Assembly: GCA_964606745.1 (NCBI GenBank)
Contig: CAZSHJ010000003.1
Coordinates: 4,806 to 68,805, forward strand
DNA length: 64,000 nt
Reading direction: 5' to 3'
Source of the DNA: an uncultured Thermoplasmatales archaeon
GTDB taxonomy: Archaea > Thermoplasmatota > E2 > UBA202 > DSCA01
Within the stretch, counting starts at the first letter, position 1. The number at the start of each line of letters is the position of its first letter. This document shows positions 16,831-44,718 of this stretch, piece by piece. A program made the translations under genes and the position numbers. The notes beneath the pieces are model-generated. The model saw only the letters and a list, made by a program, of their open reading frames with translations. It was not told where the DNA came from and searched no databases.

Positions 16831-16935
16831 GTTGCTTGGGTTTGGTCATATAAGGTGGTATCATATCGAGAAAAGCAGGTTTAAGCAAAAGAGCAAGGAA
16901 GAACTCAGTAAAAGAGGTATTAGATTATTTAGAGG

Positions 16936-18362: not shown

Positions 18363-20767
18363 AGCTTCTATCCATTGTGCTTCACAACTACAGGAAATTC
18401 CAGCATGTCGAGATTATCTTCCCTGACGGCATCACGGCAATCATAGGCAACAACGGCTCGGGGAAATCGACAATCATAGAAGCCGTGGGATGGGCGATAT
18501 ACGGTAGTAAGGTTGCCCGCACCAACAAAGAAGGCATAAGAAGACAGAGTGCAAGTCCCAACGAGGAATGCTGGGCCCGGCTGACGTTTGAGCTCGGGGG
18601 AGATGTGTACGAGGTTACTAGGATGATGACCCCGTCTTTCTCGGCCGATGCAAACGTCAAGGTGAATGGGTTGGTGGCAGCCTCCTCCGCCACCGGCGCC
18701 ACCCGGCTGCTGGAGAAGAGGATAGGAATGGATTACGATGCCTTTTTCACCTCGCTGGTCGCCCGGCAGAAGGAGATAAATGCACTTTCGAGCAGGACAC
18801 CGGGGGAAAGGAAGAAGAGCATGCTCAGGATGCTGAAAATCGATGCCATCGAGGATGCGGTGAGGAAGGTGAGGGATGACCGAAAGGGGAAGGAGAATGT
18901 CGTGGAGGCGATGGAAGGCACTCTTAAGGACATGGATGAACTCAAAAAGGGCATGGATGAAAGCAGGGCAAAAAAAGAGAGTCTGGCGTTAAGACTGCAT
19001 GAAACGGAGGACAAAATTTCGTTGCTTGAGGGGGAGGTCGGGGAGCTGGAAGTCAGGAGAGAGGCGGAGAAGAAGAAAGCCGAGAGGTATAACGAGCTGG
19101 AAAGAGAGAAGGTGCTGGTTGGTGAGAGGGCAGAGTCGAAAAGAAGGCAGATGGAGGAAAAGGAAAAAGAGAGGATTTCACTCACGAAAAAAAGGATACG
19201 GTACGGGGAGATAGAGCCGTTGGAAAAAGAGTATGATGCCCTAAAAAAAGAAAAAGAGCACATGGAAGGCATGAGGGAAAAATACCTTTCGGTCAAGAAG
19301 TTAAGGGAGGATATAACCGGCTTTCGGAAGGAGACGGAGGGGATGGATAAAACCATTGTAACTCTCGAGGAAAGGTTGAAGGAAAGGGAAAAGATAGGAA
19401 AAGAAGCGAGGGAGCTGGAAGTCGGACAGAGAGAAATCACGGACAAAAAGGAGAAAATAAAAAGTTCGATAAGGATAAAGGTTTTTCAGATAAAGGCATC
19501 GGAAGAGAAAATAGAGGCGACCGAAAAGGAGAGGAAAAAAATAGAGGAAATGGGACCCGACAGCAGCTGTCCCACATGCGGCAGGCCTCTAGAAGGGCAT
19601 TATGGTAAAATTATCAAGAATTTTGCGGAAAAGGCGGAGGGTGAACGAAAAAATATCGAAGCGCTCGGGGCGGAGCAGCGCTCACTTAAGGATGAGCTTG
19701 AGGGGCTGGATGCCGAGGAAGAAGCGTTGAAAAAAAGGATGGACGGGGCAATAAAACTTATGGAAGAGATAAAGGAGAATGAACAGAGATTGGGACATGT
19801 ATTGGAGACTAAAAAGGAAAGGGAGGCAAAGGTAGGGCAGATTGAAGGCAAAATTGCCGGGATGGGAAAGGTGGAATTTGACGAGAAAATATACGGGGGG
19901 TATGGGGAAAAACTCGGGGAACTGATGCCGGTAAAAGAGGATATAATCGTTCTCAGGAACGAAATCAAGAGACTGCCCGAGGTGGAGGGTACCATCTCGC
20001 AGTTGAAAATCGATATGGAATTGCTTGACAAGAGGGCGGAGGGTATAGCCCGGGAAATCAAGGAACTGGATTTCGATAAACAGAGATACGAGGCAATCGA
20101 GAAAAAATACGAGGAAAAAAGAAAGGAGATGCAGGGAATGAGGGAGGGACGGGTGCGGCTGGAGGGGGAGATAAAGCAGGCAAAATTGGATTTGGAACGA
20201 CTTGAAAAAGACATGAAGGAACAGAGGGAAGCGAGGGGAAAAATAAAGGCATTGAGAAGGGAGATACAACAGCTTGAGACACTTGCGGGCGACCGCGATT
20301 CCGGTCTTCTCAATGATTTCAGGAGATATTTGATTTCAAAGATAGGGCCGGTGCTTTCATATCATGCTTCAAACTTCTTCAACGTATTTACGGGGGGAAA
20401 ATACAGCCAGATGGAGATAGACGACAATTATGATATATTTATCTACGACAACGGGGAAAAGTTCGCCATCAACCGTTTTTCCGGGGGGGAGGAGGATCTG
20501 GCAAATTTGTCCCTGCGTCTTGCAATCTCCCAGATTATAGCCCAGCGCGCCGGCAATCTTGAATTCAATTTCATAGTGCTTGACGAAATATTCGGTTCGC
20601 AGGACAACGAGAGGAGGGCAAACGTACTGAATACCCTGGGAGAGTTGTCTCACCAGTTCCGTCAGGTCATACTCATAACCCACATAGAGGAGATAAAGGA
20701 CGGTATGCAGTACGTCATAAAAACCTTTGAGGACGAGGAGGGTATATCTCATGTGAGGGTGGAATAA
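18359..20767 (+). CDS. rad50: Rad50 SMC-like ATPase with a zinc hook.
   Basis: Walker A GNNGSGKST, a long coiled coil, the CPTCGRPL zinc hook, and the C-terminal signature FSGGEEDLANLSLRLA followed by a D-loop. Confidence 0.9.
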   Translation: MKLLSIVLHNYRKFQHVEIIFPDGITAIIGNNGSGKSTIIEAVGWAIYGSKVARTNKEGIRRQSASPNEECWARLTFELGGDVYEVTRMMTPSFSADANVKVNGLVAASSATGATRLLEKRIGMDYDAFFTSLVARQKEINALSSRTPGERKKSMLRMLKIDAIEDAVRKVRDDRKGKENVVEAMEGTLKDMDELKKGMDESRAKKESLALRLHETEDKISLLEGEVGELEVRREAEKKKAERYNELEREKVLVGERAESKRRQMEEKEKERISLTKKRIRYGEIEPLEKEYDALKKEKEHMEGMREKYLSVKKLREDITGFRKETEGMDKTIVTLEERLKEREKIGKEARELEVGQREITDKKEKIKSSIRIKVFQIKASEEKIEATEKERKKIEEMGPDSSCPTCGRPLEGHYGKIIKNFAEKAEGERKNIEALGAEQRSLKDELEGLDAEEEALKKRMDGAIKLMEEIKENEQRLGHVLETKKEREAKVGQIEGKIAGMGKVEFDEKIYGGYGEKLGELMPVKEDIIVLRNEIKRLPEVEGTISQLKIDMELLDKRAEGIAREIKELDFDKQRYEAIEKKYEEKRKEMQGMREGRVRLEGEIKQAKLDLERLEKDMKEQREARGKIKALRREIQQLETLAGDRDSGLLNDFRRYLISKIGPVLSYHASNFFNVFTGGKYSQMEIDDNYDIFIYDNGEKFAINRFSGGEEDLANLSLRLAISQIIAQRAGNLEFNFIVLDEIFGSQDNERRANVLNTLGELSHQFRQVILITHIEEIKDGMQYVIKTFEDEEGISHVRVE

Positions 20768-20936: not shown

Positions 20937-21070
20937 TATTTTTGATTTAAAAAGACCAGAAGAAAATTAAATGAATTAGCAGGGGCGGTATTTGTTTAGA
21001 TAATAGATAGAGGTCAGTGTTCTGAAGCTGAGGATTGTCCATTAGATAAGGCCACACTATATTTTGAAGA

Positions 21071-22507
21071 GTGAAAGCCATCCTCATAAGGAGAGAACTT
21101 CAGACGCCTGGTCAGTATCAAATGATAAATAAGTTTAAAAATAATGAAATTCTATTAAATTATATGGGCTTTCAAAATAAATCAAAATCAGTCGCACTAA
21201 TTGTATTATTGATTGTTCCATCATTTTTTTCCCTCGTGTTTATAGTTGATCCAGCGGATTCATTGGCGGGAGGTCTAGAGTATAACAAAAACTCAGAGCC
21301 AGTTTGTACTATTGATAATAAAGCATTGATTAAGAGCGATATGTGCTGTCTTGAGTATGGTAATGAAACGTTATGTCGAAAAATTGGAACCTTTCAGGAT
21401 TCTAATTTTAGTGTCAAATGTGAATATTATATGGGCATTAGAAAGGAGAATGTTTTAATGTATTTTTTTACATATGAACTTAACAACTCTGGAAAATTTT
21501 ACCCTCTTGTAATCAATCTTTATACGTGGCCAGAAAAAATAGTTACAGATGATTTTGAAAACCCACTAAATGAAGAACCTTTAATGGTAGATACGTTTCC
21601 TTTTGTTTTATCAGGAAATAATAGAAGTTTGTACTTCCCCGAAAATAAGAATTATGAATATTACCTCTCTAATTCACAAGGAGAATATATATTATACATT
21701 TACTCAAAAACATCGAAAAATACAGACCATTCATCGATAGAAATGGTTGCAGTTTCAAGTGTTTTAAATAAATCAAACTTTCATGAATGCTCCCCTATTT
21801 ATCTATACGAAAATCCGCCGACTTGGAGTTCGTTTGGTCCAGAGCGGACAAAAATTGAAATAAAAAAATTTTTCACAGGAAGAATGTTGAGTTGGCATCC
21901 TGAATTGCCTTATGTAGAATTATCACTGGAAATATGTCCACCCAATGAAAGTGATAATGGAAATAAGACCTTGGTTATCAAATTTAACGGCATTTCGGGG
22001 ATGATGACTGAGAACGTATCGTATGATATAAACAATAAAAGATGGTGCTTCCCAGAAGAAGGCACAGAGCAGATATATTTTAACTATAATAGTTGGTTGT
22101 ACCCATTAAGTAAGTACATAACAACAATAAAAATTGATAGCAACATATCATTCAATGGTAGCCAATCTTTGGAGATACCTGGCAAACAACTACTGGATGC
22201 TGAGGTTATCTATAAATGGGATGAGATAAAAATCGAAGTGTATAACAATTGGTGGACGTGCATTCTATTGATTTTTATTTTGTTATCTTATTTGCCTGCT
22301 ATTAGTTGGTTTAGGAAATACCTAAAAGATGAAGAAAAAACATTCTCGTCATCGTTGGTGGTGTACGAGGTCATTCCAATTCTCTTTAGTGGTTTCTCGT
22401 TGTTAGTTAACTGGATTCCACTGAAGAGTATCTTATTTTTGGTATTGCTATCGAGCTGGGTATTCATTCCCTTAACTTTTGGTTTAATTAAAAAATATAA
22501 ACGTTGA
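21071..22507 (+). CDS. Asn-rich secreted/membrane hypothetical protein. AT-rich and likely foreign. The true start is probably near 21127.
   Basis: 478 aa with an N-terminal TM segment, C-terminal TM helices and many N-x-S/T sites. GC is about 33% versus about 48% in neighbouring rad50. Confidence 0.4.
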   Translation: MKAILIRRELQTPGQYQMINKFKNNEILLNYMGFQNKSKSVALIVLLIVPSFFSLVFIVDPADSLAGGLEYNKNSEPVCTIDNKALIKSDMCCLEYGNETLCRKIGTFQDSNFSVKCEYYMGIRKENVLMYFFTYELNNSGKFYPLVINLYTWPEKIVTDDFENPLNEEPLMVDTFPFVLSGNNRSLYFPENKNYEYYLSNSQGEYILYIYSKTSKNTDHSSIEMVAVSSVLNKSNFHECSPIYLYENPPTWSSFGPERTKIEIKKFFTGRMLSWHPELPYVELSLEICPPNESDNGNKTLVIKFNGISGMMTENVSYDINNKRWCFPEEGTEQIYFNYNSWLYPLSKYITTIKIDSNISFNGSQSLEIPGKQLLDAEVIYKWDEIKIEVYNNWWTCILLIFILLSYLPAISWFRKYLKDEEKTFSSSLVVYEVIPILFSGFSLLVNWIPLKSILFLVLLSSWVFIPLTFGLIKKYKR

Positions 22508-22606
22508 AATTTAGTTGTGACATTTTTTCACTACCACTGGCCATTAAGGTAGTCAAGTAGGATGGCAAGAAAACAGATAAGATGAATCATGTGGTTTTTG
22601 CATTAT

Positions 22607-23020
22607 TTACATAAACTTCCTTTTGATCCAGGTCCTATCAAAATCTCTGTCATTTGAATAAATCGTGCTTATATTCATCCTTTTCATAACAGCTAATGAA
22701 ATGCAGTCATTGAAATCGATTTTATACTTTTTTACAAATTCAGATGCCGCTATAAAGTCTCTCATATCTAAGGGTATTATCTCCAGGTGGAATATTGAGG
22801 ATATTAGTTTTATTTCTTCTTCTATCTCTTCTGACCTTTTATGTTTTTCAAGCCACCAACATACTTCTGCAAGATTTATTTGAGAGGTTACTGCTTTCTC
22901 TCCACTATCAATTCTCTCCAGTATTATTTTTGATACCTCTCCAAACTCAGGGTGTCCCTGGATGGCATAAATGAAGACATTGGTATCTACAAATCTTCTT
23001 CTATTCTTTTCTTCATCCAT
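22607..23020 (-). CDS. vapC: PIN-domain ribonuclease, a VapC-type toxin.
   Basis: FVDTNVFIYAI plus conserved acidic residues including SNDRDFD. Confidence 0.75.
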   Translation of the reverse strand: MDEEKNRRRFVDTNVFIYAIQGHPEFGEVSKIILERIDSGEKAVTSQINLAEVCWWLEKHKRSEEIEEEIKLISSIFHLEIIPLDMRDFIAASEFVKKYKIDFNDCISLAVMKRMNISTIYSNDRDFDRTWIKRKFM

Positions 23021-23235
23021 TCTCTGGCCTCTCTTTTTGGATTTTTCTCTGGCTTTACTTTTACGCTTCCATACAATTTTTCCACAGGTTTTTCTACCAT
23101 ATCCTTGGATCTTATTACCAGTTTTTTATCATCTATCGAGATCAATATCTTTTCTCCCTCCCCTATTTTCAGTATCTTTCTCATTTTCTTGGGGATGACA
23201 ACTCTCCCGCCCACCGATACTTTCATTTCTTCCAT
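22987..23235 (-). CDS. vapB: AbrB/SpoVT-family antitoxin (VapB). The start is trimmed to the MEEMKVS methionine.
   Basis: A swapped-hairpin motif VSVGGRVVIPKKMRKILKIGEGEKILI lies just upstream of vapC and overlaps it. Confidence 0.6.
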   Translation of the reverse strand: MEEMKVSVGGRVVIPKKMRKILKIGEGEKILISIDDKKLVIRSKDMVEKPVEKLYGSVKVKPEKNPKREAREWMKKRIEEDL

Positions 23236-23351
23236 TTTCCCACAAAATACATGTAGTTTTGGTATATAATATTTGTCATTAAATATTATCCATAGAGATT
23301 TTGTCAAATAAAAGATGGTACAATTCTCTTGTCAACTAGTTATTAATAGCA

Positions 23352-31398: not shown

Positions 31399-32517
31399 GT
31401 GCAACATTTAAAATCCCGACCTTTTTTGAATATTCTTATAAGCGGCAATTCGTTTTGGTACGTTAAAATGGTAAAAATTGAAAAGGTAATATTCTGCGTG
31501 TTTGTGGCAATGCTTTTCGTGATGCCCATGCTGTCTCAATCTGATTCATCATCTCTGGTGGGGGGCGGGGAGGTAAAAAATGATGACCGTTGTATTGGAT
31601 TTAATGTCCTGGGCGATGGGTGGAATAAAACATTCGGGGGAAGTGATGCTGACCAGAGCCACTCCGTCATACAAACTGCCGACGGGGGATATGTTCTGGC
31701 GGGAACGACCGCCTCGTTCGGTGCAGGGGGCGATGACATGTGGCTTGTCAAAACCGATGGCGAGGGCAACGAGCAGTGGAACCGGACTTTCGGGGTGAGG
31801 GAAAATGATGTGGGATGGGACTGCCAGCAGACTTCGGACGGCGGATATGTCATGGCAGGTTTTGCCGGTTCTTCGTCTTCGATATACGGCAATGTTCTGT
31901 TGATAAAGACCGACGGTAACGGCGATGAAATGTGGACAAAAACTTTTGAGGACGACGATGGCAGCAGTGCATACTCGGTTCAGCAGACCGCCGACGGCGG
32001 CTACATCATAGGCGGGGTTACCAACCTCGGCGAGGGGCATGGTGACATATTACTCGTCAAAACGGACGGTGACGGAAACTTTCTGTGGGACAGGATTTTT
32101 GGGGGATATTATCCAGATGCCTGCTACTCGGTTCGGCAGACCGCCGATGGATGCTACATCATAGCCGGAGAAACATATTCTTTCGGTGCAGGAATTGTGG
32201 ATGCATGGCTCGTAAAGACGGCAGAGCCTGCGGTGAAGATATGGATTTCGGGCGGTTTTGGATTGCATGTGTTAATCAAAAATATTGCTGACGATGAACT
32301 GCACGACATAGGTTATTCAATCGAGTTCAGCGGGCTGATATTCATTGGCAGGGAAAGTACGGGGTTCATCAGTTCAATTCCCCCGGGCGGGGAGGTGGCG
32401 GTCAACATGCCGGTTTTCGGCATTGGTTCGGTGACGGTGAAGGTGACGGCATCGGATATATCAAAGACGGCACACTTCCGTGTATTTGGGCCATTTTTGT
32501 TGCCAGACGCAAAATAA
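31399..32517 (+). CDS. Secreted beta-propeller-repeat (SBBP-like) protein.
   Basis: Six or more repeats of the form QTADGGY...AG.T.SFGAGG.D.WLVKTDG.GN..W. A signal peptide is present; the probable start is near 31468. Confidence 0.55.
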   Translation: MQHLKSRPFLNILISGNSFWYVKMVKIEKVIFCVFVAMLFVMPMLSQSDSSSLVGGGEVKNDDRCIGFNVLGDGWNKTFGGSDADQSHSVIQTADGGYVLAGTTASFGAGGDDMWLVKTDGEGNEQWNRTFGVRENDVGWDCQQTSDGGYVMAGFAGSSSSIYGNVLLIKTDGNGDEMWTKTFEDDDGSSAYSVQQTADGGYIIGGVTNLGEGHGDILLVKTDGDGNFLWDRIFGGYYPDACYSVRQTADGCYIIAGETYSFGAGIVDAWLVKTAEPAVKIWISGGFGLHVLIKNIADDELHDIGYSIEFSGLIFIGRESTGFISSIPPGGEVAVNMPVFGIGSVTVKVTASDISKTAHFRVFGPFLLPDAK

Positions 32518-34455: not shown

Positions 34456-34528
34456 GGGCCCGTGGGGTAGCTTGGCATCCTTCCAGCTTGGGGTGCTGGT
34501 AACCCGAGTTCAAATCTCGGCGGGCCCA
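34456..34528 (+). tRNA. tRNA-Pro(GGG).
   Basis: 73 nt. Acceptor stem GGGCCCG/CGGGCCC is followed by discriminator A. Anticodon stem CCAGC/GCTGG has loop TTGGGGT (anticodon GGG, G37). T-arm CCGAG-TTCAAAT-CTCGG. Confidence 0.8.
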
Positions 34529-34844
34529 TTTCTATTTTTATCTGGCATTTGTATTTGCCCATGCATTAGCGGCTGGCTGATTTAAAAGCGCGGAGGGAGG
34601 TGCTGAATCCCACGATAAATTTTATGGTTGGAGAAGGGATTCCGCCAGCTCTCCTCTTCGTAAGAAGCCCCGCCATTCATGGCGGGGAGTATGTCACTTG
34701 TTCATTCGTCATTTGTGTGAGGATGCGCCAGTCGCTATAAGGAGAAAGGGATTTACTGAGTGTGCCTAAAACGCACATTTTCCGCTCTTTTTTGTTACTT
34801 TCCGAAGTACTGATAAAATCGATAAATTTATAATAAGTTATTGT

Positions 34845-35774
34845 TTGATACCAAATAGGATGGGAAAGATGGATATCAGGGATTACAAATCTGGTATAGC
34901 TAATTCCTTAGATATAAAAACTATTGATAACATACTCATTAAGTTGATAGTATCAGAAAAAGAAGATGACGTTAACTGCGATTATTATATGATTGAATGT
35001 TATGAAGACGATATCCGGGAAGAAGATTTTTTACGAGCTTTAGTTAATATGATTCCCCATTATGCATTAAAAAGGGAAAAATTGGATTCTCTTTCGAAGG
35101 AAAATTTTATGAAACTCAGTAAAGAAGCTTTAAGAAGATTTGTTAGAACTGAAAACTCGGGGGAAATTGGAGAACTACTGATCTTTATTTTATTAGAGGC
35201 CGAAAGGAAGGCTTCTCAATTGATAAATAAAATGGTTTTGAAGACTTCTGGGGGTGTTCACGTTTATGGTCTTGACGGAATACATATTGGGGTTCTTGAC
35301 GATGATGTTGTTCTATACTATTGTGAATCCAAAACTTACAAAGATTTAAACAAGGGCATAAATGCTGCAATATCTGATTTGGATAAATTTCATCAGGACA
35401 ACATAAAAGAAGCCTTCGAATTAGAGCTTGTTAGCGATAATATAGATGAAAAAAAGTTTGAGGGAATCAAAGATAAACTTTTGGAATTATTAGATCCTTA
35501 TACAGAAATAGATAAGAGTCACTTTAAAAAGAAATATGCAATTTTTATTGGATTTGATTGGGCTAATATCAAATCATTTAATTTTAGGCCACCTATAAAA
35601 AATATCGAAGGGAAATTATGTAAATGCCTAAAAACTGATTCCAAAACAATTTGTAATAGATGCAAATCACTTGTTGATAAAAAAACAATCAATCGTTCTG
35701 TAGATATTTTCTTTTTGCCTTTTAAGGATTCTAAAAAAATAAATAGAGATTTCGTTAGGGAGATAAAATCATGA
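34845..35774 (+). CDS. PD-(D/E)xK nuclease-fold protein, a HamA-like (DUF1837-like) candidate.
   Basis: 309 aa. GELLIFILLE...GLDGIH...VLYYCESKTYKD fits the D...ExK pattern. Its stop overlaps the start of the helicase gene. Confidence 0.45.
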   Translation: MIPNRMGKMDIRDYKSGIANSLDIKTIDNILIKLIVSEKEDDVNCDYYMIECYEDDIREEDFLRALVNMIPHYALKREKLDSLSKENFMKLSKEALRRFVRTENSGEIGELLIFILLEAERKASQLINKMVLKTSGGVHVYGLDGIHIGVLDDDVVLYYCESKTYKDLNKGINAAISDLDKFHQDNIKEAFELELVSDNIDEKKFEGIKDKLLELLDPYTEIDKSHFKKKYAIFIGFDWANIKSFNFRPPIKNIEGKLCKCLKTDSKTICNRCKSLVDKKTINRSVDIFFLPFKDSKKINRDFVREIKS

Positions 35775-38329
35775 ACCAGGGTTGGTATCAAGAATTGAGC
35801 AACCGAATAACTTCAAATGATGAATTCATTGGGGATTATCTTGAATTATCAAGGCATTTTTTCAATAATAAGCAAAATAGTCTGTCATCAAAAACCCTTA
35901 AAAGACTTATGGAGAGTGCTTCAATTTTTGCTTGCTCCTCAGAGGAAACCCATAAAAGATTGGCTTTAAAGATTGCTGGCTCAGTTATGGAGGCTGATAT
36001 TGATAATGAAGCCTTAACTGCAGCGTCTGAGTTAATATTTTTAAGATTAGGCAATTTTCCATTAATAAGAATGGCTATAGAAAAATATGAAATGAAAGAT
36101 TTTTTTAGCATTTACAATGGAAATAGACCATTGACTACTCTCTCCCTAAACTATGAACTCACCAACAAGGTTATATCAAATCAAATAGTTATCGGGAAAA
36201 ATATTGAATTATTTACAGATTTTCAATCGAATGTAATAAAATTTTTAAGTGAAAAAGAAGATCTTTCTATTTCTGCTCCTACTTCAGCAGGAAAATCTCA
36301 TGCGTTGAAATCCTTTATTATTCAATCCCTTTTGACAAAAGAAAGATTTGTAGTGGTTTATTTGGTGCCAACCAGGGCACTCATAACTCAGGTACAGAAA
36401 GAAATCAGACAATCATTTAATGAATACTCCATAACTGATGCTGAAATTTTCACCTCTTCTTGGGAAGTGGTCGGGGAGGGAAAACATGAATTTTCTAAAG
36501 CAGTTATAATTTTAACGCAGGAGCGCCTACAAACTATAGAGGGAAGGACAGATAATTTTCAAGTGGATTTTCTTGTTGTTGATGAAGCTCAAAATATTGA
36601 AAAGGGTAGTCGAGGAATTACCTTAGAAGATAGTATTATGCAACTAATTGAATGGAACCCAGATTTTCAAATTGTATTTATATCTCCTTTTAGTAAAAAT
36701 CCAAAAAAATTTGGTGAGATATTCTCTTATGAAACTAAAGACATTATAACAAAACTTACGCCGGTAAGCCAAAATATTCTTTACGTCAATATTGATGGTA
36801 AAAAAATTACTATTAAACAAGTTTCACAGGAATTAGAAAAAATTCTAGATATGGCAGAATATGATGGTGAAAAATCCCTTCCTAAAGTTGGATATAAAAG
36901 AAAATCTTGGGTTGCGTTAAATCTTGTTGATGGCAACTCTACACTAGTTTATTGTGATGGGGCTCATGATTGTATAAGAACTGCACATTATCTTGTAGAT
37001 AATGCCAAAAATGCATCACTAAATAATAAAGAACTTGATGACGCTGGTAATTTTCTAGCTTCTTATATTCACCCACAATATTATCTTGTCGATTTCATCA
37101 AGAAAGGAGTTGGTTATCACTATGGAAACATGCCAGCTTCTGTACGGACTATTGTAGAATCACTGTTTAAAAAGAGATTAATTAATTCTGTGTGCTGCAC
37201 AAGTACATTATTAGAAGGCGTTAACTTTCCAGCAAAGAATATTATTTTGTACAGACCGAAAGTCGGTTTGAAAAACCCTATGGACAAGTTGGGATTTTTA
37301 AATTTAGCTGGACGAGCTGGGAGATTGATGGAAGATTTTGTGGGTAATATTTACTGTATTAACCCCCAAGAATGGAGGGATGGTTATACCCCAAAATCAA
37401 CACCAGAAGACCATGAAATTGGAAGCTCTATGGAAGATGTTGTAAAGAAGAAAAAAGATGAAATTATTAGTCATTTGAAAAAGTATGTAAAGAAAAGAGA
37501 TAATGAAGATGTCATGGTAGCAGTCACTAGATTTTTGGTAAATGAAATTAGAAAAGGAAACAAAGAGTTTGTGAAAAATCTGTTGCAACGTGATAAAGAA
37601 ATTCGAAAACAAGACCTAGATGACATTGTTAAAATGGTTAAACAAATTGTAAGTGAAATAGAATTAGATGGTAAAATTATTATTAAAAATAGGGCTATTG
37701 ACCCCAGATTACAGAATAGATTGTACTTGCACCTTCAAAAAATGGACGAACCTCCTTTGCCCCTTCATCCATCAAATTTTGAATTTTATGAGTCTTTGTT
37801 AAAAATATTAAGTGTAACTAACGAGATATTCCAGAGGAAAAAACCCGAAAATTCGTTAAAATTCACAGCTTGGCTTTCAAAGTCATGGTCAAACGAGGAA
37901 CCTTTAAATGAAATTATCAAACAAAGAATCTCGTATAAATCCAAAAACACTCAACTTACAAAGAAGAAAATCAATGATATAATAGAAGATGATATTATTA
38001 AACATATCAATCATAGAATAAGATACGAGGTAGTTAGGGATTTTAGTTGTTATATCTCTATACTTAAATATGTATTAGAAGAAAAAGATGGGGTGCCTGA
38101 ACATTTTGATGAGAAAGTACCATATTATTTGGAAATTGGGGCAAGTACACCCACCACGATCACTTTAATCAATAACGGCATTCCAAGATCGCTTGCATTA
38201 TTATTTTCTGAGCATCTGCCTGAAGATTTACAGGATTTTGAACTTTGCAAGAAATATATTGAGCAAAATGAAAGTTATATCAAACAAAAAATCTCACCCG
38301 CCTTATACAAAGAATTAGTATTGTTTTAA
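35771..38329 (+). CDS. Ski2/Hel308-like SF2 helicase, a HamB-like candidate.
   Basis: 852 aa with motif I ISAPTSAGKSHAL, motif II FLVVDEAQNI, GVGYHYGNMP (an HHAGL-like motif), CTSTLLEGVNFPAKNIILY and motif VI NLAGRAGRLMED. Confidence 0.55.
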   Translation: MNQGWYQELSNRITSNDEFIGDYLELSRHFFNNKQNSLSSKTLKRLMESASIFACSSEETHKRLALKIAGSVMEADIDNEALTAASELIFLRLGNFPLIRMAIEKYEMKDFFSIYNGNRPLTTLSLNYELTNKVISNQIVIGKNIELFTDFQSNVIKFLSEKEDLSISAPTSAGKSHALKSFIIQSLLTKERFVVVYLVPTRALITQVQKEIRQSFNEYSITDAEIFTSSWEVVGEGKHEFSKAVIILTQERLQTIEGRTDNFQVDFLVVDEAQNIEKGSRGITLEDSIMQLIEWNPDFQIVFISPFSKNPKKFGEIFSYETKDIITKLTPVSQNILYVNIDGKKITIKQVSQELEKILDMAEYDGEKSLPKVGYKRKSWVALNLVDGNSTLVYCDGAHDCIRTAHYLVDNAKNASLNNKELDDAGNFLASYIHPQYYLVDFIKKGVGYHYGNMPASVRTIVESLFKKRLINSVCCTSTLLEGVNFPAKNIILYRPKVGLKNPMDKLGFLNLAGRAGRLMEDFVGNIYCINPQEWRDGYTPKSTPEDHEIGSSMEDVVKKKKDEIISHLKKYVKKRDNEDVMVAVTRFLVNEIRKGNKEFVKNLLQRDKEIRKQDLDDIVKMVKQIVSEIELDGKIIIKNRAIDPRLQNRLYLHLQKMDEPPLPLHPSNFEFYESLLKILSVTNEIFQRKKPENSLKFTAWLSKSWSNEEPLNEIIKQRISYKSKNTQLTKKKINDIIEDDIIKHINHRIRYEVVRDFSCYISILKYVLEEKDGVPEHFDEKVPYYLEIGASTPTTITLINNGIPRSLALLFSEHLPEDLQDFELCKKYIEQNESYIKQKISPALYKELVLF

Positions 38330-38444
38330 ACAATCTGGATTTTCTGCAGTTATCGCATTGCGGATAACCAATTCCCACCTCTTCTGTTGGAGTATGTCCC
38401 AATATATCATCTCTCTTTATGAAGTTATAATACATCCTGTAATA

Positions 38445-38588
38445 CCGTCTCGCTCCCCCCTACTTGTGCGTTCCTGTGAAACCCCCCTACTATATGTATA
38501 TAGATATATAATAGGAATTAGTAAAACATTTCCGGCGAGTGTGTAACGATCGGGAGCGGACAGGCACCAATCAACAGATAGAAACACC
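38445..38588 (+). repeat. Intergenic repeat family R, copy 1 (3' portion).
   Basis: CTTGTGCGTTCCTGTGAAACCCCCC...TATATGTATATAGATATATAATAGGAATT...CAACAGATAGAAACACC followed by a T-run. It is about 85% identical to the copy at 44365. Confidence 0.7.
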
Positions 38589-38865
38589 AATATTTTTTTA
38601 CAATAAGGTCGCCTATTGTAGAAAAGGGGCGGAAATGTACCGGAAATTTTATTTTTGCTGAGCGGTAATGAGCAAATAGTGAGAGGATTGAATGCAGTAT
38701 TCATTATCTTTTATTCCCTCAAACTTTCGATTTTTTCCTCCACTGTAGCAGAATTTTATAATATTTTGCAACCCGTATTTACCACCCGTTTTGCTCGCCA
38801 CCCAAAACCCGAAGATTCGCCAGACCATAAACCAATACTTTTTTAAATAATGTAGTAATATAAAA

Positions 38866-39354
38866 TTGTTTAACATGTTATCCAACACGACAAAGGAGAA
38901 TGCAACGCAAACGGATATGGAAGAATTAGGGCAGTGTAAATTTTGCTCTATGATTAAAAACAAAAGAAATTATGATACTTTCATTACTGAATTAAATTAT
39001 GGCTATGTTTTTCTTAATCCAAATCAATCTTATAAAGGTCGAGTAATATACATACTTAAAGAGCACATCGAAGATTTTACCGAAGTTGATAACGATTTGT
39101 TTTTAAATTTCTGTGGAGAAATGAAGCAGATTGCAAAAATAACTAAACAAACTTTACAGAATCCCCTAATAAACGTTGCTATCCTCGGTAACAAAATTAA
39201 ACATCTGCATTGGCACATAATTCCAAGATATAAGTACGATAGTCGGTGGAATGGACCCCCTTGGCCAATTGATACAAAATTATTGAATCCTGACGAGTAT
39301 AAGGAATTGGCACTTTTGATAGGGGGGAAATTGAAGGTACTTAAAAATGACTGA
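38866..39354 (+). CDS. HIT-family nucleotide hydrolase/transferase.
   Basis: A histidine triad HLHWHIIPRY plus an N-terminal Cys pair (CKFCS). Confidence 0.7.
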   Translation: MFNMLSNTTKENATQTDMEELGQCKFCSMIKNKRNYDTFITELNYGYVFLNPNQSYKGRVIYILKEHIEDFTEVDNDLFLNFCGEMKQIAKITKQTLQNPLINVAILGNKIKHLHWHIIPRYKYDSRWNGPPWPIDTKLLNPDEYKELALLIGGKLKVLKND

Positions 39355-40354
39355 AATAATAAGATATAGAAAAACACCCGTTGGTTTGAATGATATCGGA
39401 AAATTTCCAGCATTGGAGGGAAACTGGAATTACTCTTACAAGAGTCTAAAAAATTTAAATCTTGCTTTCAACGAAAAATTAGATATAGACTCGGAAAAAA
39501 CATCAATTGTGCTAATGGGGTCTTTTGGTAGATATGAAGCATGCCCGTTTTCAGATATAGATTTAGTTGTTGTTTCAAATGAAAAAGAAACTGAGATAAA
39601 AAAAATAAGAAGTAACGCTTTAAAAATTGGTCGAGAATTGAGATTTTTAGCACCTAATCCTAAAGGCGTTTTTAGCCAAGTTAAACCAATCGATTCTTCA
39701 ATACGGGATATTGGAAGCCATAAAGTTGACGATAGTTTTCAGCTATCGCAAAGACTCTTATTGCTAATGGAATCAACACCTGTCTGGAATAAGACATTCT
39801 ATGATGAAATCATCGATAGATTGCTCGAGAGATACTCTTATTATGTAATCGAGGAACCGAAAAAAGAGCAGATATTCCTATTGAATGACACCATCAGATA
39901 TTTTCGCACAATTTGTGTCAATTACCAACACTCTTTTTGGAAAGAAAACGAAAAATGGGCTATTAGAAATATTAAATTAAATCATAGCAGAATTATTATG
40001 TTTGCAGGACTATTATTTCTCATTCTTAACTCCAGCAAAAATAGAACAGACAAAGTGAACTATATGAAATCCCACATGAAATTAACCCCACTAGAACGAA
40101 TCATCCATGTCTATAATGATAACAATGATACAAATGTTGAAAGAGTTGTTGGTTCATACAATGTTTTTCTTGGAAAAATGAGTGATAAGAATATTCGAAA
40201 TAGTCTAAATATTGATTACGTAAATCGGTATTTAAATCCAATATATGCTGAATTAAAAGTCAACGCATGTTTATTGACGGCTGAGCTAACACGCTTTATA
40301 TTTTCTATGATGGGTCACTGGACGAATAGCATATTTGAATATCTTATTTTTTAA
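39347..40354 (+). CDS. Pol-beta-superfamily nucleotidyltransferase (GlnE/DUF294-like or CD-NTase-like) with a C-terminal helical domain.
   Basis: LMGSFGRYEACPFSDIDLVVV matches the GS...DxD NTase motif. The gene overlaps the HIT gene by 8 bp. Confidence 0.5.
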   Translation: MTEIIRYRKTPVGLNDIGKFPALEGNWNYSYKSLKNLNLAFNEKLDIDSEKTSIVLMGSFGRYEACPFSDIDLVVVSNEKETEIKKIRSNALKIGRELRFLAPNPKGVFSQVKPIDSSIRDIGSHKVDDSFQLSQRLLLLMESTPVWNKTFYDEIIDRLLERYSYYVIEEPKKEQIFLLNDTIRYFRTICVNYQHSFWKENEKWAIRNIKLNHSRIIMFAGLLFLILNSSKNRTDKVNYMKSHMKLTPLERIIHVYNDNNDTNVERVVGSYNVFLGKMSDKNIRNSLNIDYVNRYLNPIYAELKVNACLLTAELTRFIFSMMGHWTNSIFEYLIF

Positions 40355-40850: not shown

Positions 40851-41037
40851 CAATAAATTCGGTTCTGGTGCAATTCCGGGTCTTTTCTCTCCACAAACGT
40901 TACGCCGTCCCACTTGTGCGTTCCTGTGAAACCCCCCCCACCATATACACATATATATGTTATAGGAATCTTAATTTCATTGCCGTTTGCCGGCACGCCA
41001 ATGCAGGGGACGTGAGGGTGTTCAACAGATGTAAAAC
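40851..41037 (+). repeat. Intergenic repeat family R, copy 2 (full length).
   Basis: ATAAATTCGGTTCTGGTGCA...CACAAACGTTACGCCGTCCCACTTGTGCGTTCCTGTGAAACCCCCC...TATA-rich...TTCAACAGATGTAAAACCC followed by TTGATTTTTT. Confidence 0.7.
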
Positions 41038-41285
41038 CCTTGATTTTTTAAGAATAGCCTTCTCATCTTCTCCAACAAAGAAAATCTTTTGTACTCGTCC
41101 TTTGACCTGTGCAAATGTCCAGGAAATACTCCGAGTTTGTTATATTCACTGAAAGCACCTTCGCTTTCTGGGTGCTCTTTCTCCATCTCATTTTTTATTT
41201 TAGCAAACAGGGTATGGAGCTGAATTAATTCTTCTTTTTGCATCCTGTCACGGTGGGATAAATAAATTTGGTTTAGAATGTGCAA
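41022..41285 (-). CDS. Hypothetical small protein.
   Basis: 87-aa ORF that overlaps the 3' end of repeat R2. Confidence 0.3.
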   Translation of the reverse strand: MHILNQIYLSHRDRMQKEELIQLHTLFAKIKNEMEKEHPESEGAFSEYNKLGVFPGHLHRSKDEYKRFSLLEKMRRLFLKNQGFYIC

Positions 41286-41884
41286 TGTCCAAACTCTGGA
41301 GGATTTCCAATCTTTCCGTACAACACAGTAATCCTTCCTAACACTTCATCTATTAAAGATTGATCATTATTCATCCACTTCAAATCATTTTTTAATTCGT
41401 CGTGAATACTTTCACAATCTACCGCAACAGCATCTTCTTTAGCAATGACACAAAAATAAAACTGCACATCACCATTTATCTTGTACTCATTTCCACCCAT
41501 ATCGCCAGTTACGGGATTGAACAGGAGTTTCTCTGAAAAATTATTTCTTGCTTTAAAATAGTCCACGAATTTATAAAAGTCACCCTGATAATAAGGGTAA
41601 TTAGAATGTTTTAGCTCTACAAATGCTGTTATCTCCCCGCCCTTACATATTAGGTAGTCTGGAGAATAGTGCCCCAAGTTTAACAAGGTAGGCTTTGCAA
41701 ATAATTCATACCCATCTTTCTCGATGTTTTTTATTAGGTAATGGCCCAAACGAAAGTCCAGGTCGCCTTCATAGGCTATTTTTCCATCCTCATAGTATCG
41801 TTTAATATCTTCATTCCATATCTTCAAAATCACTGTTTTAATCATAGAATTTTCATCATGCATATAGTTTAATCCTGTTTCCAA
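41273..41884 (-). CDS. Hypothetical protein with a possible PD-(D/E)xK nuclease motif.
   Basis: 203 aa. HYSPDYLICKGGEITAFVELKHS fits a PD...ExK pattern. Confidence 0.35.
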   Translation of the reverse strand: METGLNYMHDENSMIKTVILKIWNEDIKRYYEDGKIAYEGDLDFRLGHYLIKNIEKDGYELFAKPTLLNLGHYSPDYLICKGGEITAFVELKHSNYPYYQGDFYKFVDYFKARNNFSEKLLFNPVTGDMGGNEYKINGDVQFYFCVIAKEDAVAVDCESIHDELKNDLKWMNNDQSLIDEVLGRITVLYGKIGNPPEFGHCTF

Positions 41885-41908: not shown

Positions 41909-42025
41909 GGGTTCTGTTTCAAATACAGGTCTTTTCCCTGCACAAACGTTACGCCATCATACTTGCGGGTACTGTGAAACCCCCCCGCTATATGTATATA
42001 GATATATTATGGGAATTAGATTACT
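41909..42025 (+). repeat. Intergenic repeat family R, copy 3 (5' and TATA portion, diverged).
   Basis: GGGTTCTGTTTCAAATACAGGTCTTTTCCCTGCACAAACGTTACGCC...CTGTGAAACCCCCCCGCTATATGTATATAGATATATTATGGGAATT. Confidence 0.65.
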
Positions 42026-43641: not shown

Positions 43642-43887
43642 TTAGCATACATCTTCAAAAATGATAGATAACTCTGCTTTGTGGAGGGGGGTGACAGATT
43701 CCACGATAAATTTTGCGGTTGGTGCACCGGTTCTGGTGCATATACGACTGTTACTATTTAGTTGGTGCATTCGACTGTCACACTCCTTCCCATTAAATCC
43801 AACATTTTATTCCTTCCAAGATTTAAGTCAATCCCTGCTTCCTCTGCCGGAGCGAACCGTAACGGGTTCTGGTGCAAAAGTGGCATT

Positions 43888-44364: not shown

Positions 44365-44543
44365 GGTTCTGGTGCAAATACAGGTCTTTTCCCTTCACAA
44401 ACGTTACGCCGTCCTACTTGTGCGTTCCTGTGAAACCCCCCTGTTATATGTATATAGATATATAATAGGAATTGATAAAACGTTTCCGGCGTGTGTGTGG
44501 CGATTGGGAGCTGACGGACACCATTCAACAGATGTAAAACCCC
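44365..44543 (+). repeat. Intergenic repeat family R, copy 4 (full length).
   Basis: GGTTCTGGTGCAAATACAGG...CTTGTGCGTTCCTGTGAAACCCCCCTGTTATATGTATATAGATATATAATAGGAATT...TTCAACAGATGTAAAACCCC followed by ATTATTTTT. Confidence 0.7.
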
Positions 44544-44544
44544 A

Positions 44545-44718
44545 TTATTTTTCGGCAATCATATATGGAATCCCATCCTTTATTTTGTATGTGGCTCTGC
44601 ATTTCGTGCATGTGAACATTCCCTCCAGGATATCATCGCCTTCCATTTCTTTCACCTCCAGCTCAAGTTCGCCACGGCATGCGGGACAGCACATCATCTG
44701 GATAAATTCTTTCTTCAT
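44545..44718 (-). CDS. Trm112-like zinc-ribbon small protein (57 aa). It is missing from the ORF track, which uses a 60-aa minimum.
   Basis: Translation of the reverse strand gives MKKEFIQMMCCPACRGELELEVKEMEGDDILEGMFTCTKCRATYKIKDGIPYMIAEK, carrying the CPxC...CxxC Trm112/UPF0434 signature. Confidence 0.6.
   Translation of the reverse strand: MKKEFIQMMCCPACRGELELEVKEMEGDDILEGMFTCTKCRATYKIKDGIPYMIAEK

What the first reader, a model, noticed from the sequence alone, without database searches (positions are those of the whole stretch)
34845..38329. Hachiman-like two-gene antiviral module: PD-(D/E)xK protein plus Ski2/Hel308-like helicase
A 309-aa protein carries a D...ExK nuclease signature. Its stop overlaps the start of an 852-aa SF2 helicase that has Hel308-type motifs (APTSAGKS, DEAQ, an HHAGL-like motif, TSTLLEGVNFP, AGRAGR) and long non-catalytic extensions. 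This size, order and overlap match the HamA(DUF1837)/HamB architecture of Hachiman systems. It sits at the start of a tRNA-linked island. Archaeal Hachiman homologs are rare and diverged. The identification is by motif only.
Basis: inference. Interest (0 to 1): 0.65.

Follow-up and report, generated by a model that had tools for sequence, protein, structure and literature searches.

The report
Archaeal Hachiman (HamA–HamB) antiviral gene pair
These two overlapping genes are a complete, apparently intact copy of the known Hachiman antiviral system (a DNA-cutting enzyme controlled by a DNA-sensing helicase), carried in a low-GC, probably imported stretch of an uncultured archaeon's chromosome; it is a routine new member of a known family.

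Summary
ORF 34869–35774 matches HamA/DUF1837 over almost its full length (Pfam PF08878 163 bits against a cutoff of 25; PADLOC HamA1 7.6e-50). It keeps the family's near-invariant GExGE, D136 and E153-x-K155 residues. ORF 35771–38329 matches PADLOC HamB1 end to end (2.7e-186) and has intact SF2 motifs. It fails the NCBIfam Hel308 models by a wide margin (75.5 bits against 1200). The genes overlap by ATGA. Predicted folds match solved HamA and HamB chains best. In 6 of 6 relatives with enough contig, hamB directly follows hamA, and the two identities fall in near-parallel. By architecture it is a type I-A Hachiman: a DUF1837-only, catalytically competent HamA, not an AbpAB-type fusion. The mechanism is inferred from characterised bacterial systems: HamB restrains HamA, then on sensing aberrant DNA it licenses HamA to degrade DNA. 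Archaeal Hachimans are not rare: most named close relatives are archaeal and they are already reported. The "tRNA-linked island" has a GC drop and a synteny break but no integrase or att repeat. Side observations: a conserved uncharacterised HIT–nucleotidyltransferase pair, a four-copy local repeat, and an HgcC-like RNA element.

The parts
34869..35774 (+). hamA: stand-alone DUF1837 / PD-(D/E)xK effector nuclease, 301 aa. Alternative starts are ATG 34860 (304 aa) and TTG 34845 (309 aa, unlikely).
   Evidence: Pfam PF08878 163 bits against cutoff 25, covering profile 2-230/230. PADLOC HamA1 PDLC00168 7.6e-50, profile 31-309/312. AF2 model pLDDT 79, pTM 0.83; the only PDB matches with high Foldseek probability (1.00) are the HamA chains 8zue_A, 8vx9_A and 8vxy_A (E 3e-5 to 2e-3). 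Gene-caller start.
35160..35174 (+). HamA motif G98-E99-I-G101-E102 (GExGE), which holds the first conserved acidic residues of the nuclease site.
   Evidence: E102 is conserved in 100% and G98/E99/G101 in 95-97% of 126 full-length family representatives. The motif matches the G89-D90-x-x-E93 pattern of S. thermophilus HamA by pattern only, where D90A and E93A abolish defence.
35268..35285 (+). HamA motif G134-L-D136-G-I-H139, carrying the D of D...ExK.
   Evidence: D136 is conserved in 100%, G134 in 99% and H139 in 95% of 126 representatives.
35322..35333 (+). HamA motif C-E153-S-K155 (the ExK).
   Evidence: K155 is conserved in 100% and E153 in 87% of 126 representatives. Equivalent ExK mutations abolish defence in E. 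coli ECOR31 (E138A/K140A), DEC14B (E150A/K152A) and S. thermophilus (E147A, K149A). The correspondence rests on motif pattern, not residue-level superposition.
35771..35774 (+). ATGA overlap of the hamA stop (TGA) and the hamB start (ATG); an operon junction.
   Evidence: Read directly from the sequence. E. coli K12 hamAB has the same 4-bp overlap, as does relative L007; L005 overlaps by 14 nt and L008 by 1 nt.
35771..38329 (+). hamB: Ski2/Hel308-like SF2 sensor helicase, 852 aa.
   Evidence: PADLOC HamB1 PDLC00186 2.7e-186 over aa 26-848. Best PDB sequence match is 9wh1_B, 7e-55 over aa 143-813. AF2 pLDDT 90, pTM 0.89; top Foldseek hit is HamB 8vxa_A with TMq 0.69, against about 0.5 for Hel308/Hjm. 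Fails the NCBIfam Hel308 cutoffs.
35771..36085 (+). HamB N-terminal all-helical domain (aa 1-105, six helices); presumed HamA-docking, TPR-like domain.
   Evidence: Helices H3-14, 17-32, 40-53, 59-74, 80-92 and 96-104 in the AF2 model. [quoted passage not shown] The docking role here is inferred.
36203..36760 (+). HamB RecA1 (aa ~145-330): Q-motif FTDFQ 148-152, motif I APTSAGKS 169-176, Ia VPTRAL 199-204, II DEAQ 271-274, and ISPF 304-307 at the position expected for motif III.
   Evidence: Pfam DEAD 4.1e-19 over aa 149-305. Motif coordinates. Q152, A169, P170, T171, S172, G174, K175, S176, D271 and E272 are invariant in a 40-sequence HamB alignment. Naming ISPF as motif III is by position only.
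36923..37375 (+). HamB RecA2 (aa ~385-535): GYHYG 448-452, motif V TSTLLEGVNFP 477-487, motif VI AGRAGR 513-518.
   Evidence: Pfam Helicase_C aa 444-518 (23.3 bits, just below its 23.5-bit gathering cutoff). T477, T479, G483, N485, P487, G514, R515, G517 and R518 are invariant in 40 HamB sequences.
37427..38326 (+). HamB C-terminal all-helical region (aa ~553-852), covered by the HamB profile and by the AbpB-like structure 9wh1_B.
   Evidence: The HamB1 profile match runs to aa 848. The alignment to 9wh1_B runs to aa 813. The region is helical in the AF2 model.
34827..34836 (+). TATA-like TTTATAATAA, 24-33 nt upstream of the two candidate ATG starts; possible archaeal promoter of hamAB.
   Evidence: Read from the sequence. 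The promoter role is inferred and untested.
34456..34528 (+). tRNA-Pro(GGG), the left-hand landmark of the low-GC segment (context).
   Evidence: ARAGORN; Rfam tRNA 53 bits. The same EamA-epimerase-tRNA-Pro order occurs in Thermoplasmatales MAG contig L003, with unrelated genes after the tRNA.

Best explanation
This is a complete two-gene Hachiman defence system of the type I-A architecture. HamA is a stand-alone DUF1837 protein with an intact PD-(D/E)xK active site. HamB is a compact (852 aa) Ski2/Hel308-like SF2 helicase. The pair lies in a low-GC segment of an uncultured archaeon's chromosome that was probably acquired horizontally.

Shown here: family membership of both proteins, intact catalytic and ATPase motifs, overlapping co-oriented genes, conservation of the pair in relatives with near-parallel divergence, and fold agreement with solved HamA and HamB.

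Inferred from characterised bacterial Hachimans (E. coli ECOR31, DEC14B and K12; S. thermophilus):
- HamA and HamB form a 1:1 complex through HamB's N-terminal helical domain.
- HamB surveys DNA and keeps HamA in check.
- When HamB engages aberrant DNA, such as 3' single-stranded ends, damage or viral replication intermediates, its ATP-driven activity licenses HamA.
- HamA then degrades DNA indiscriminately, aborting the infection at the cost of the cell.

The published systems disagree on whether HamA is released or acts within the complex, and on which DNA form triggers it. Neither point can be decided here.
For: Family membership:
- PADLOC HamA1 7.6e-50 and HamB1 2.7e-186, both near full length.
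- Pfam HamA PF08878 163 bits against a cutoff of 25.

Catalytic residues:
- HamA E102, D136 and K155 are 100% conserved and E153 is 87% conserved among 126 full-length representatives, and all are present here.
- HamB motif I (GKS) and motif II (DE) are invariant among 40 homologues and present here.

Gene arrangement:
- ATGA overlap.
- hamB directly follows hamA in 6 of 6 relatives with enough contig. HamA/HamB identities fall in near-parallel (one swap): 45/50, 42/50, 40/44, 36/46, 36/40 and 29/33%.

Structure:
- The HamA model matches only HamA chains in the PDB.
- The HamB model's best match is HamB 8vxa_A at TMq 0.69, above Hel308 at about 0.5.
- The N-terminal six-helix domain is consistent with the HamA-binding TPR domain.

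Context and literature:
- The mechanism comes from PMC12278908, PMC11914072 and PMC13064477.
- hamAB GC is 0.317 against 0.43 for the rest of the window. Relatives in L005 (0.33 against 0.51) and L007 (0.34 against 0.43) are likewise low-GC inserts.
- The next gene pair is a PADLOC defence candidate.
Against: - No experiment exists on this or, as far as the papers read here say, any archaeal Hachiman.
- Sequence identity to every characterised system is low. HamA gives no phmmer hit to ECOR31 HamA, and its only solved sequence relative is the catalytically inactive AbpA-type domain.
- The HamA fold matches are moderate (TM 0.53-0.60, rmsd about 7 Å).
- The HamA-HamB interface was not modelled.
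- HamB is about 320 residues shorter than ECOR31 HamB and is closest in sequence to the AbpB type. The trigger (3' ssDNA or dsDNA) may therefore differ from the best-studied model.
- Whether the genes are expressed is unknown.
Confidence: 0.88

Rival explanations
1. The helicase is the host's housekeeping Hel308/Hjm DNA-repair helicase, and the upstream gene is an unrelated nuclease partner. On this view the pair acts in replication-fork repair, not antiviral defence.
For: HamB is Ski2/Hel308-like. Hel308, Hjm and PolQ-helicase chains are high-probability Foldseek matches (TMq about 0.5) and weak sequence matches. One homologue is annotated 'Hel308' in a public record (P0103).
Against: NCBIfam helicase_Hel308 scores 75.5 bits against a cutoff of 1200, and the other Hel308-type equivalogs score 56-92 bits against 887-1216. 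PDB Hel308 sequences align mainly over the RecA-type helicase core (best stretches aa 439-531 or 142-531), whereas HamB profiles cover aa 26-848. The gene is fused in an operon with a DUF1837 gene in every relative examined. It sits in a low-GC segment absent from the one comparable genome.
Confidence: 0.02
2. It is an AbpAB-type (type I-B) Hachiman, in which the DUF1837 domain is a dead scaffold and another nuclease domain does the cutting.
For: Among solved structures the closest sequence matches for both proteins are the AbpAB-like entry 9wh1 (HamA part 4.5e-7, or 6.6e-18 with a profile; HamB 7e-55). HamB length (852 aa) matches that entry's 853 aa.
Against: HamA is only 301 aa, and the DUF1837 profile covers residues 61-293 (309-aa numbering), leaving no room for an N-terminal Cap4 domain. 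The D...ExK residues that the AbpA-type domain lacks (it has HSAAF where this protein has YCESK) are present here.
Confidence: 0.02
3. The pair is a genuine HamAB, but in this archaeon it serves mainly the mobile segment that carries it (addiction or competition between mobile elements), or a genome-integrity function, rather than virus defence. Alternatively it is silent cargo.
For: The composition looks foreign. Relatives sit next to a transposase and an integrase (L007). Hachiman can be triggered by DNA damage without phage. The role of Hachiman in archaea is stated to be unknown.
Against: Every experimentally tested Hachiman protects against phages. Both ORFs are full length with all catalytic residues intact, which argues for continued selection on activity. 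The neighbours include another defence-candidate pair.
Confidence: 0.08
4. hamAB and the downstream HIT-nucleotidyltransferase pair form one four-gene composite system.
For: The four genes are co-oriented and adjacent (38329 to 38866) and share the same low GC. A 24-nt segment of hamA is repeated in inverted orientation between hamB and the HIT gene.
Against: hamAB occurs without a HIT or NTase gene in L005, L007 and L008. The HIT-NTase pair occurs without hamAB in L009 and L010. A 536-nt spacer with a repeat element separates the two pairs. The inverted repeat is absent from relatives.
Confidence: 0.03

Closest known systems
Type I-A Hachiman (HamAB), e.g. E. coli DEC14B and E. coli ECOR31 (PDB 8VX9/8VXA/8VXY)
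   Same: Two overlapping, co-oriented genes. HamA is a stand-alone DUF1837 protein with a D...ExK active site. HamB is a Ski2/Hel308-like SF2 helicase with intact ATPase motifs. The predicted folds of both proteins match these solved chains.
   Different: Identity is very low (11-14% in the structural alignments), and HamA gives no phmmer hit to ECOR31 HamA. HamB here is 852 aa against 1174 aa, so about 300 residues of ECOR31 HamB have no counterpart. These may include the WH*/OB modules described for that type, but which ones was not resolved here. The host is an archaeon.
Type I-B Hachiman / AbpAB (E. coli K12, PDB 8ZUE; related entry 9WH1)
   Same: The closest solved HamB by sequence (7e-55 over aa 143-813). 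Similar HamB length. An N-terminal helical HamB domain that docks DUF1837. A 4-bp gene overlap.
   Different: AbpA carries an N-terminal Cap4-type nuclease and a catalytically dead DUF1837 domain. HamA here has no extra domain and keeps D136/E153/K155.
Archaeal Hel308/Hjm DNA-repair helicase
   Same: Same Ski2-like SF2 core fold and motif style; 3'-5' DNA helicase relatives.
   Different: Fails the curated Hel308 models by more than tenfold in bit score. It has the HamB-specific N-terminal docking domain and C-terminal region, and it is always paired with hamA.
Archaeal hamAB loci already in public genomes (Nitrosotalea devaniterrae LN890280; Methanomicrobia MAG GCA_016930255)
   Same: Same gene order and sizes (HamA 306-310 aa, HamB 856-871 aa) and the same PF08878 + DEAD architecture. 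The Nitrosotalea copy sits among ubiquitin-like (Multi_ubiq/ThiF/BubE) genes and a restriction-enzyme HsdR gene.
   Different: Only 29-42% (HamA) and 33-50% (HamB) identical to the window's proteins. The flanking genes differ.

Membership tests
Hachiman (HamAB) | HamA contains a DUF1837 (PF08878) domain | tested here: met
   Pfam PF08878 163 bits against a gathering cutoff of 25, profile 2-230/230. Twenty PADLOC HamA models hit, best 7.6e-50.
Hachiman (HamAB) | HamB is an SF2 helicase matching HamB profiles over its whole length, not only the RecA core | tested here: met
   PADLOC HamB1 PDLC00186 2.7e-186, aa 26-848 of 852, profile 31-853/864.
Hachiman (HamAB) | hamA and hamB are adjacent and co-oriented in one operon, hamA first | tested here: met
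   ATGA overlap at 35771-35774. The same order occurs in 6 of 6 relatives with room on the contig.
Hachiman (HamAB) | Intact PD-(D/E)xK catalytic residues in HamA (as in type I-A) | tested here: met
   E102, D136, E153 and K155 are present. They are conserved at 100, 100, 87 and 100% in 126 representatives. Equivalence to the mutated residues of characterised HamA rests on motif pattern.
Hachiman (HamAB) | Intact Walker A and DExx ATPase motifs in HamB | tested here: met
   GKS at aa 174-176 and DEAQ at aa 271-274; both invariant in the 40-sequence alignment.
Hachiman (HamAB) | HamA and HamB fold like solved HamA and HamB | tested here: met
   The HamA model's only PDB matches with high Foldseek probability are 8zue_A, 8vx9_A and 8vxy_A (prob 1.00; E 3e-5 to 2e-3; TM 0.47-0.60). 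The HamB model's top hit is 8vxa_A, TMq 0.69.
Hachiman (HamAB) | HamA and HamB form a heterodimer through HamB's N-terminal domain | not testable with these tools
   Only monomer prediction is available. The N-terminal six-helix domain is present in the model, and HamA/HamB identities fall in near-parallel. Both are indirect.
Hachiman (HamAB) | Confers protection against viruses; ATP- and nuclease-dependent DNA degradation | not testable with these tools
   Needs experiments. Known only for the bacterial systems.
Type I-B Hachiman / AbpAB | HamA has an N-terminal Cap4-type nuclease domain and a catalytically inactive DUF1837 domain | tested here: not met
   HamA is 301 aa with DUF1837 only. 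The active-site residues are present where the AbpA-type chain has HSAAF.
Housekeeping Hel308/Hjm | Scores above the curated NCBIfam equivalog cutoffs for Hel308 | tested here: not met
   NF040935 75.5 against 1200; NF002654 91.9 against 887; NF002251 65.4 against 891; NF001308 56.5 against 1216.
tRNA-integrated genomic island | Integrase gene at one end and a direct repeat of the tRNA 3' end at the other | tested here: not met
   No integrase or recombinase domain in any ORF between 34.8 and 46 kb. No second copy of the tRNA-Pro 3' 20- or 31-mer in the window, allowing up to 3 mismatches.
tRNA-integrated genomic island | Compositional deviation, and a synteny break at the tRNA | tested here: met
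   GC is 0.28-0.37 (mostly 0.30-0.34) over 34.8-40.6 kb against about 0.47 upstream. In L003 the EamA-epimerase-tRNA-Pro order is conserved, and the genes after the tRNA are unrelated. This is a single comparison at 61% protein identity.
Integron-like cassette array | attC-type hairpin-forming recombination sites between cassettes, and an IntI integrase | tested here: not met
   The four repeat copies fold no better than shuffled sequence as single-stranded DNA (z from -0.9 to +0.6). No integrase was found.

The most novel reading that the evidence does not exclude
The hamAB pair may be one cassette of a roughly 9-kb low-GC array. Four same-strand copies of a local 110-190-nt repeat (38459-38598, 40861-40972, 41910-42019, 44365-44552) separate these gene modules:
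- hamAB
- HIT-NTase
- UPF0058 plus a PD..ExK-like ORF
- AsnC-permease

The array is bracketed by an HgcC/IS200-IS605-right-end-like RNA element (34593-34710) and a partial copy of its 5' part (43683-43733). On this reading the region is an undescribed archaeal hotspot for cassette exchange that needs no integrase, and the conserved HIT-nucleotidyltransferase pair beside Hachiman is a new, uncharacterised defence system.
Probability: 0.1. Interest if true: 0.55.

Novelty: new member of a known kind. Interest (0 to 1): 0.2.

Why it matters
The finding adds one more diverged archaeal Hachiman to a family that profile searches already detect. Its nearest relatives are 45% (HamA) and 51% (HamB) identical.

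Its modest value lies in three points:
- No archaeal Hachiman appears to have been tested experimentally. Archaea also carry the related repair helicase Hel308, so a compact archaeal HamAB could be used to ask how the immune helicase and the repair helicase are kept apart.
- This locus combines an active stand-alone HamA (the type I-A feature) with a compact HamB closest to the AbpB type. That bears on the unresolved question of which DNA form triggers which Hachiman subtype.
- Its neighbour, a HIT-nucleotidyltransferase pair conserved in bacteria and archaea on or near mobile elements and listed only as a PADLOC candidate, is the less-known item in the segment.

Tried and rejected
1. Empty-site comparison to define the island ends.
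- Exact-protein look-ups of the flanking epimerase and TruA returned only the same organism or nothing.
Its synteny ends at the tRNA but gives no right-hand boundary.

2. Naming the organism.
- The source is a Logan assembly of SRR9705735 plus unnamed NCBI and JGI records.
- The nearest genome is labelled 'uncultured Thermoplasmatales archaeon'.
- I can say the organism is archaeal (flanking synteny and tRNA shared with that archaeal MAG; ELP3 and Mre11/Rad50-like genes in the window), but not which lineage.

3. Direct mapping of the catalytic residues onto ECOR31 HamA by sequence failed. Neither phmmer nor a 9-sequence profile hit 8vx9_A. Fold search was used instead.

4. attC/integron reading of the four local repeats: rejected.

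5. tRNA-derived att repeat: none found.

6. Metagenome scan for the 26-nt repeat core: no match.

7. Profile scan of metagenomes.
- A 7-sequence alignment returned only 4 loci.

8. Conservation of the 24-nt hamA inverted repeat in relatives: not found.

10. HamA-HamB complex prediction: not possible with the single-chain tool.

11. Sigma-70 promoter and intrinsic-terminator scans gave counts no different from shuffled sequence, and they do not apply to archaea.

Full report
**1. Observation**

The stop of the first and the start of the second share the tetranucleotide ATGA at 35771-35774.

The TTG start at 34845 is probably not used.
- An independent gene call on an identical contig starts at ATG 34869, giving 301 aa.
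- A 304-aa cluster member fits the ATG at 34860.
- A TATA-like TTTATAATAA sits at 34827-34836.

I use 301-aa numbering below.

tRNA-Pro(GGG) lies at 34456-34528.

**2. What the proteins are**

The first protein matches Pfam HamA/DUF1837 (PF08878) at 163 bits against a gathering cutoff of 25, across the whole profile. It also matches 20 PADLOC HamA models, the best being HamA1 PDLC00168 at 7.6e-50 over profile positions 31-309 of 312.

The second protein matches PADLOC HamB1 PDLC00186 at 2.7e-186 over residues 26-848.

- The NCBIfam Hel308 equivalogs score 56-92 bits against cutoffs of 887-1216.
- PDB Hel308 sequences align mainly over the RecA-type helicase core: best stretches cover aa 439-531, or aa 142-531 for the Sulfolobus and Pyrococcus enzymes.

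**3. Active sites**

Nine HamA homologues share the invariant residues G98, E99, G101, E102, K121, K125, D136, H139, E153 and K155.

An exhaustive search of 1.84 billion cluster representatives found 719 relatives at E ≤ 1e-3. Among the 126 full-length ones in the top 150, conservation is:
- E102, D136 and K155: 100%
- K121 and K125: 99%
- E153: 87%

The pattern GE..E / D / ExK is the one whose alanine substitutions abolish defence in S. thermophilus HamA (D90, E93, D127, E147, K149). The ExK part also does so in E. coli ECOR31 (E138/K140) and DEC14B (E150/K152). I infer the correspondence from the motif pattern. No residue-level superposition was possible.

In HamB, the Walker A GKS and the DE of motif II are invariant in a 40-sequence alignment, along with motifs V and VI.

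**4. Folds**

The AlphaFold2 model of HamA has pLDDT 79 and pTM 0.83. The only PDB matches with high Foldseek probability (1.00) are three HamA chains, 8zue_A, 8vx9_A and 8vxy_A, with TM 0.47-0.60 and E from 3e-5 to 2e-3.

The HamB model has pLDDT 90 and pTM 0.89. Its top hit is ECOR31 HamB (8vxa_A, TMq 0.69), ahead of Hel308, Hjm and PolQ-helicase at about 0.5.

The model shows three regions:
- six N-terminal helices (aa 3-104);
- two RecA domains, with a β-rich segment (aa ~323-365) after RecA1;
- a long helical C-terminal region.

The docking role here is inferred.

**5. Subtype**

Under the published scheme, type I-A has a DUF1837-only HamA with an active site and makes up 86% of HamA sequences. 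Types I-B to I-D carry an extra N-terminal domain and a dead DUF1837. This locus is type I-A by architecture.

By sequence, however, the closest solved HamB is the 853-aa partner of an AbpA-like protein (9wh1_B, 7e-55 over aa 143-813). ECOR31 HamB (1174 aa) aligns only over RecA2.

In the AbpA-like chain the positions matching C-E-S-K read S-A-A-F, so it is inactive, whereas this HamA is active. The locus thus pairs an active stand-alone nuclease with a compact AbpB-like helicase. I could not determine which accessory modules of ECOR31 HamB it lacks.

**6. The pair as a unit**

Relatives were examined in:
- a Methanomicrobia MAG (L005);
- Nitrosotalea devaniterrae (L008);
- environmental contigs (L007, L012, L013, L014).

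In all six, hamB directly follows hamA on the same strand. HamA/HamB identities to the window fall in near-parallel, with one swap in rank: 45/50, 42/50, 40/44, 36/46, 36/40 and 29/33%. This fits co-inheritance of an interacting pair.

The hamAB genes are low-GC against their flanks here (0.317 against 0.43), in L005 (0.33 against 0.51) and in L007 (0.34 against 0.43). That suggests this clade moves horizontally between archaeal hosts. Full-length but distant HamB homologues (26-29% identity) also sit on bacterial plasmids, including one from Bacillus cereus.

**7. Mechanism (inferred)**

Three studies describe bacterial systems.
- In ECOR31, HamAB is a heterodimer. HamB restrains HamA on intact dsDNA. 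DNA damage or 3' ssDNA activates the helicase, HamA is freed, and all cellular DNA is degraded. Both catalytic activities are required.
- In the K12 and DEC14B systems, the complex itself hydrolyses ATP and cleaves DNA, and the K12 HamB ATPase is stimulated by dsDNA.
- In S. thermophilus, HamA is inactive alone and is activated within the complex, chiefly by ATP binding.

For the window's pair I commit to the common core. A HamB-HamA complex forms through the N-terminal helical domain. HamB carries out ATP-dependent sensing of aberrant DNA. HamA's PD-(D/E)xK nuclease is then licensed, with an abortive outcome. Which DNA form is the trigger, and whether HamA dissociates, remain open.

**8.

The host is archaeal but unnamed.
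- The flanking EamA-epimerase-tRNA-Pro block is syntenic with a 'Thermoplasmatales archaeon' MAG at 59-62% protein identity, and the tRNA is 97.6% identical over 83 nt.
- The window also carries ELP3, Mre11/Rad50-like genes, PKD/β-helix surface proteins and C25 peptidases.

On the 'tRNA-linked island':
- GC drops from about 0.47 to 0.28-0.37 (mostly 0.30-0.34) over 34.8-40.6 kb and is intermediate up to about 43.8 kb.
- Genes after the tRNA differ completely in L003.
- There is no integrase, no duplicate of the tRNA 3' end, and no defined right border.

So 'tRNA-linked island' is only partly supported.

'Archaeal Hachimans are rare' is not supported. Of the eight organism-named entries among the 120 listed HamB relatives, seven are archaeal and one is a Petrotogales bacterium. 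Published surveys report Hachiman in Freyarchaeia and find it more frequent in Asgard genomes than in other prokaryotes, while noting that its role in archaea is untested.

**9. Other things in the segment**

(a) *HIT-NTase pair.* Directly downstream are a HIT-family gene (38866-39354, histidine triad HLHWH) and an overlapping Pol-β-type nucleotidyltransferase gene (39347-40354, GS...DID).
- The NTase matches the PADLOC candidate PDC-M70A at 3.6e-41 over its full length.
- The same HIT + NTase pair occurs in Mucilaginibacter, and on an ENA contig beside relaxase, T4SS and ArdC genes. In a third genome a histidine phosphatase replaces the HIT protein.
- No solved structure and no paper was found for it.

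(b) *Local repeat.* Four same-strand copies of a repeat occur only in this segment, with core CTGTGAAACCCCCC followed by a TATA-rich tract. They lie between the gene modules. They do not fold as hairpins.

(c) *HgcC-like element.* Between the tRNA and hamA, 34593-34710 gives a sub-threshold but full-length match to Rfam HgcC (38.5 bits against a gathering score of 50; E 1.4e-7). It includes the hairpin CCCCGCCA-UUCA-UGGCGGGG.
- HgcC RNAs share this tetraloop motif with the right ends of IS1341/tnpB elements and with PATEs.
- A 51-nt partial copy (75% identical) lies at 43683-43733, near the right end of the low-GC region.

(d) *Inverted repeat.* A 24-nt stretch of hamA (35453-35476) recurs inverted at 38704-38727, matching 23 of 24 bases. 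It is unique in the window and absent from relatives. It remains unexplained.

(e) *Minus-strand ORF.* ORF 41273-41884 (−) carries a PD...ExK-like string (PDYLICKGGEITAFVELK) but matches no family.

**10. Verdict**

It is a new, diverged member of a well-known defence family and would be found by standard PADLOC or DefenseFinder annotation. The novelty is low, and the less-understood material lies beside it.

Noticed in passing
window 38866-39354 (+) and 39347-40354 (+): An overlapping HIT-family hydrolase gene (HLHWH triad) and a 335-aa Pol-beta-type nucleotidyltransferase gene. The NTase matches the PADLOC candidate PDC-M70A at 3.6e-41 over its full length. The HIT+NTase pair is conserved in Mucilaginibacter (L009) and on an ENA contig (L010) beside conjugation and relaxase genes; in L011 a histidine phosphatase replaces the HIT protein. 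There is no solved structure and no literature, so this is an uncharacterised candidate defence pair.
   Followed up: partly
window 38459-38598, 40861-40972, 41910-42019, 44365-44552 (all + strand): Four copies of a repeat found only in this segment: core ...ACTTGTGCGTTCCTGTGAAACCCCCC followed by TATATGTATATAGATATATAATAGGAATT. They lie between the gene modules (hamAB | HIT-NTase | UPF0058 + 203-aa ORF | AsnC-permease/flavodoxin | truA). They form no significant hairpin, match no Rfam family, and the 26-mer gave no hit in the metagenome scan. Three of the four lie 150-270 nt upstream of a + strand gene, so they could be duplicated promoter regions or MITE-like joints.
   Followed up: partly
window 34593-34710 (+); partial copy 43683-43733 (+): A full-length but sub-threshold match to Rfam HgcC (RF00062): 38.5 bits against a gathering score of 50, E 1.4e-7. 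It includes the hairpin CCCCGCCA-UUCA-UGGCGGGG and lies between tRNA-Pro and hamA. HgcC RNAs share this tetraloop with the right ends of IS1341/tnpB elements and PATEs (PMC4615843). A 51-nt, 75%-identical copy of its 5' part lies just after the permease gene, so the two copies bracket the low-GC region. No tnpB gene is present.
   Followed up: partly
window 35453-35476 (in hamA) and 38704-38727 (between hamB and the HIT gene): A 24-nt inverted repeat matching 23 of 24 bases (blastn-short E 1.5e-6), unique in the window. A + strand transcript through 38704-38727 would be antisense to hamA mRNA. It does not extend beyond 24 nt and is not found in six related loci, so its significance is unknown.
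   Followed up: partly
window 41273-41884 (-) and 41022-41285 (-): A 203-aa ORF with a PD...ExK-like string (PDYLICKGGEITAFVELK) but no Pfam, PADLOC, NCBIfam or PDB match. It lies next to a small UPF0058 (PF01893) gene, and both are in the low-GC segment.
   Followed up: partly
L008 (Nitrosotalea devaniterrae LN890280, 510169-524784): The hamAB relative there is flanked by Multi_ubiq/ThiF/BubE genes (a ubiquitin-like conjugation module), a type I restriction HsdR gene and an ORC/Cdc6-like kinase fusion. This looks like a clear archaeal defence island.
   Followed up: no
window 15000-17000 and 21000-23300: Two further low-GC stretches (0.33-0.35). The first holds a stand-alone CDC48 N-domain protein (15693-16451) just upstream of Mre11/Rad50-like genes (17259-20767). 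The second holds a 478-aa ORF with no Pfam family match and a PIN-domain (VapC-like) gene at 22607-23020 (-).
   Followed up: no
window 31399-32517 (+): A 372-aa ORF (349 aa by the gene caller) between a DEAD-box RNA helicase gene and an EamA transporter gene, with no Pfam or PADLOC match.
   Followed up: no
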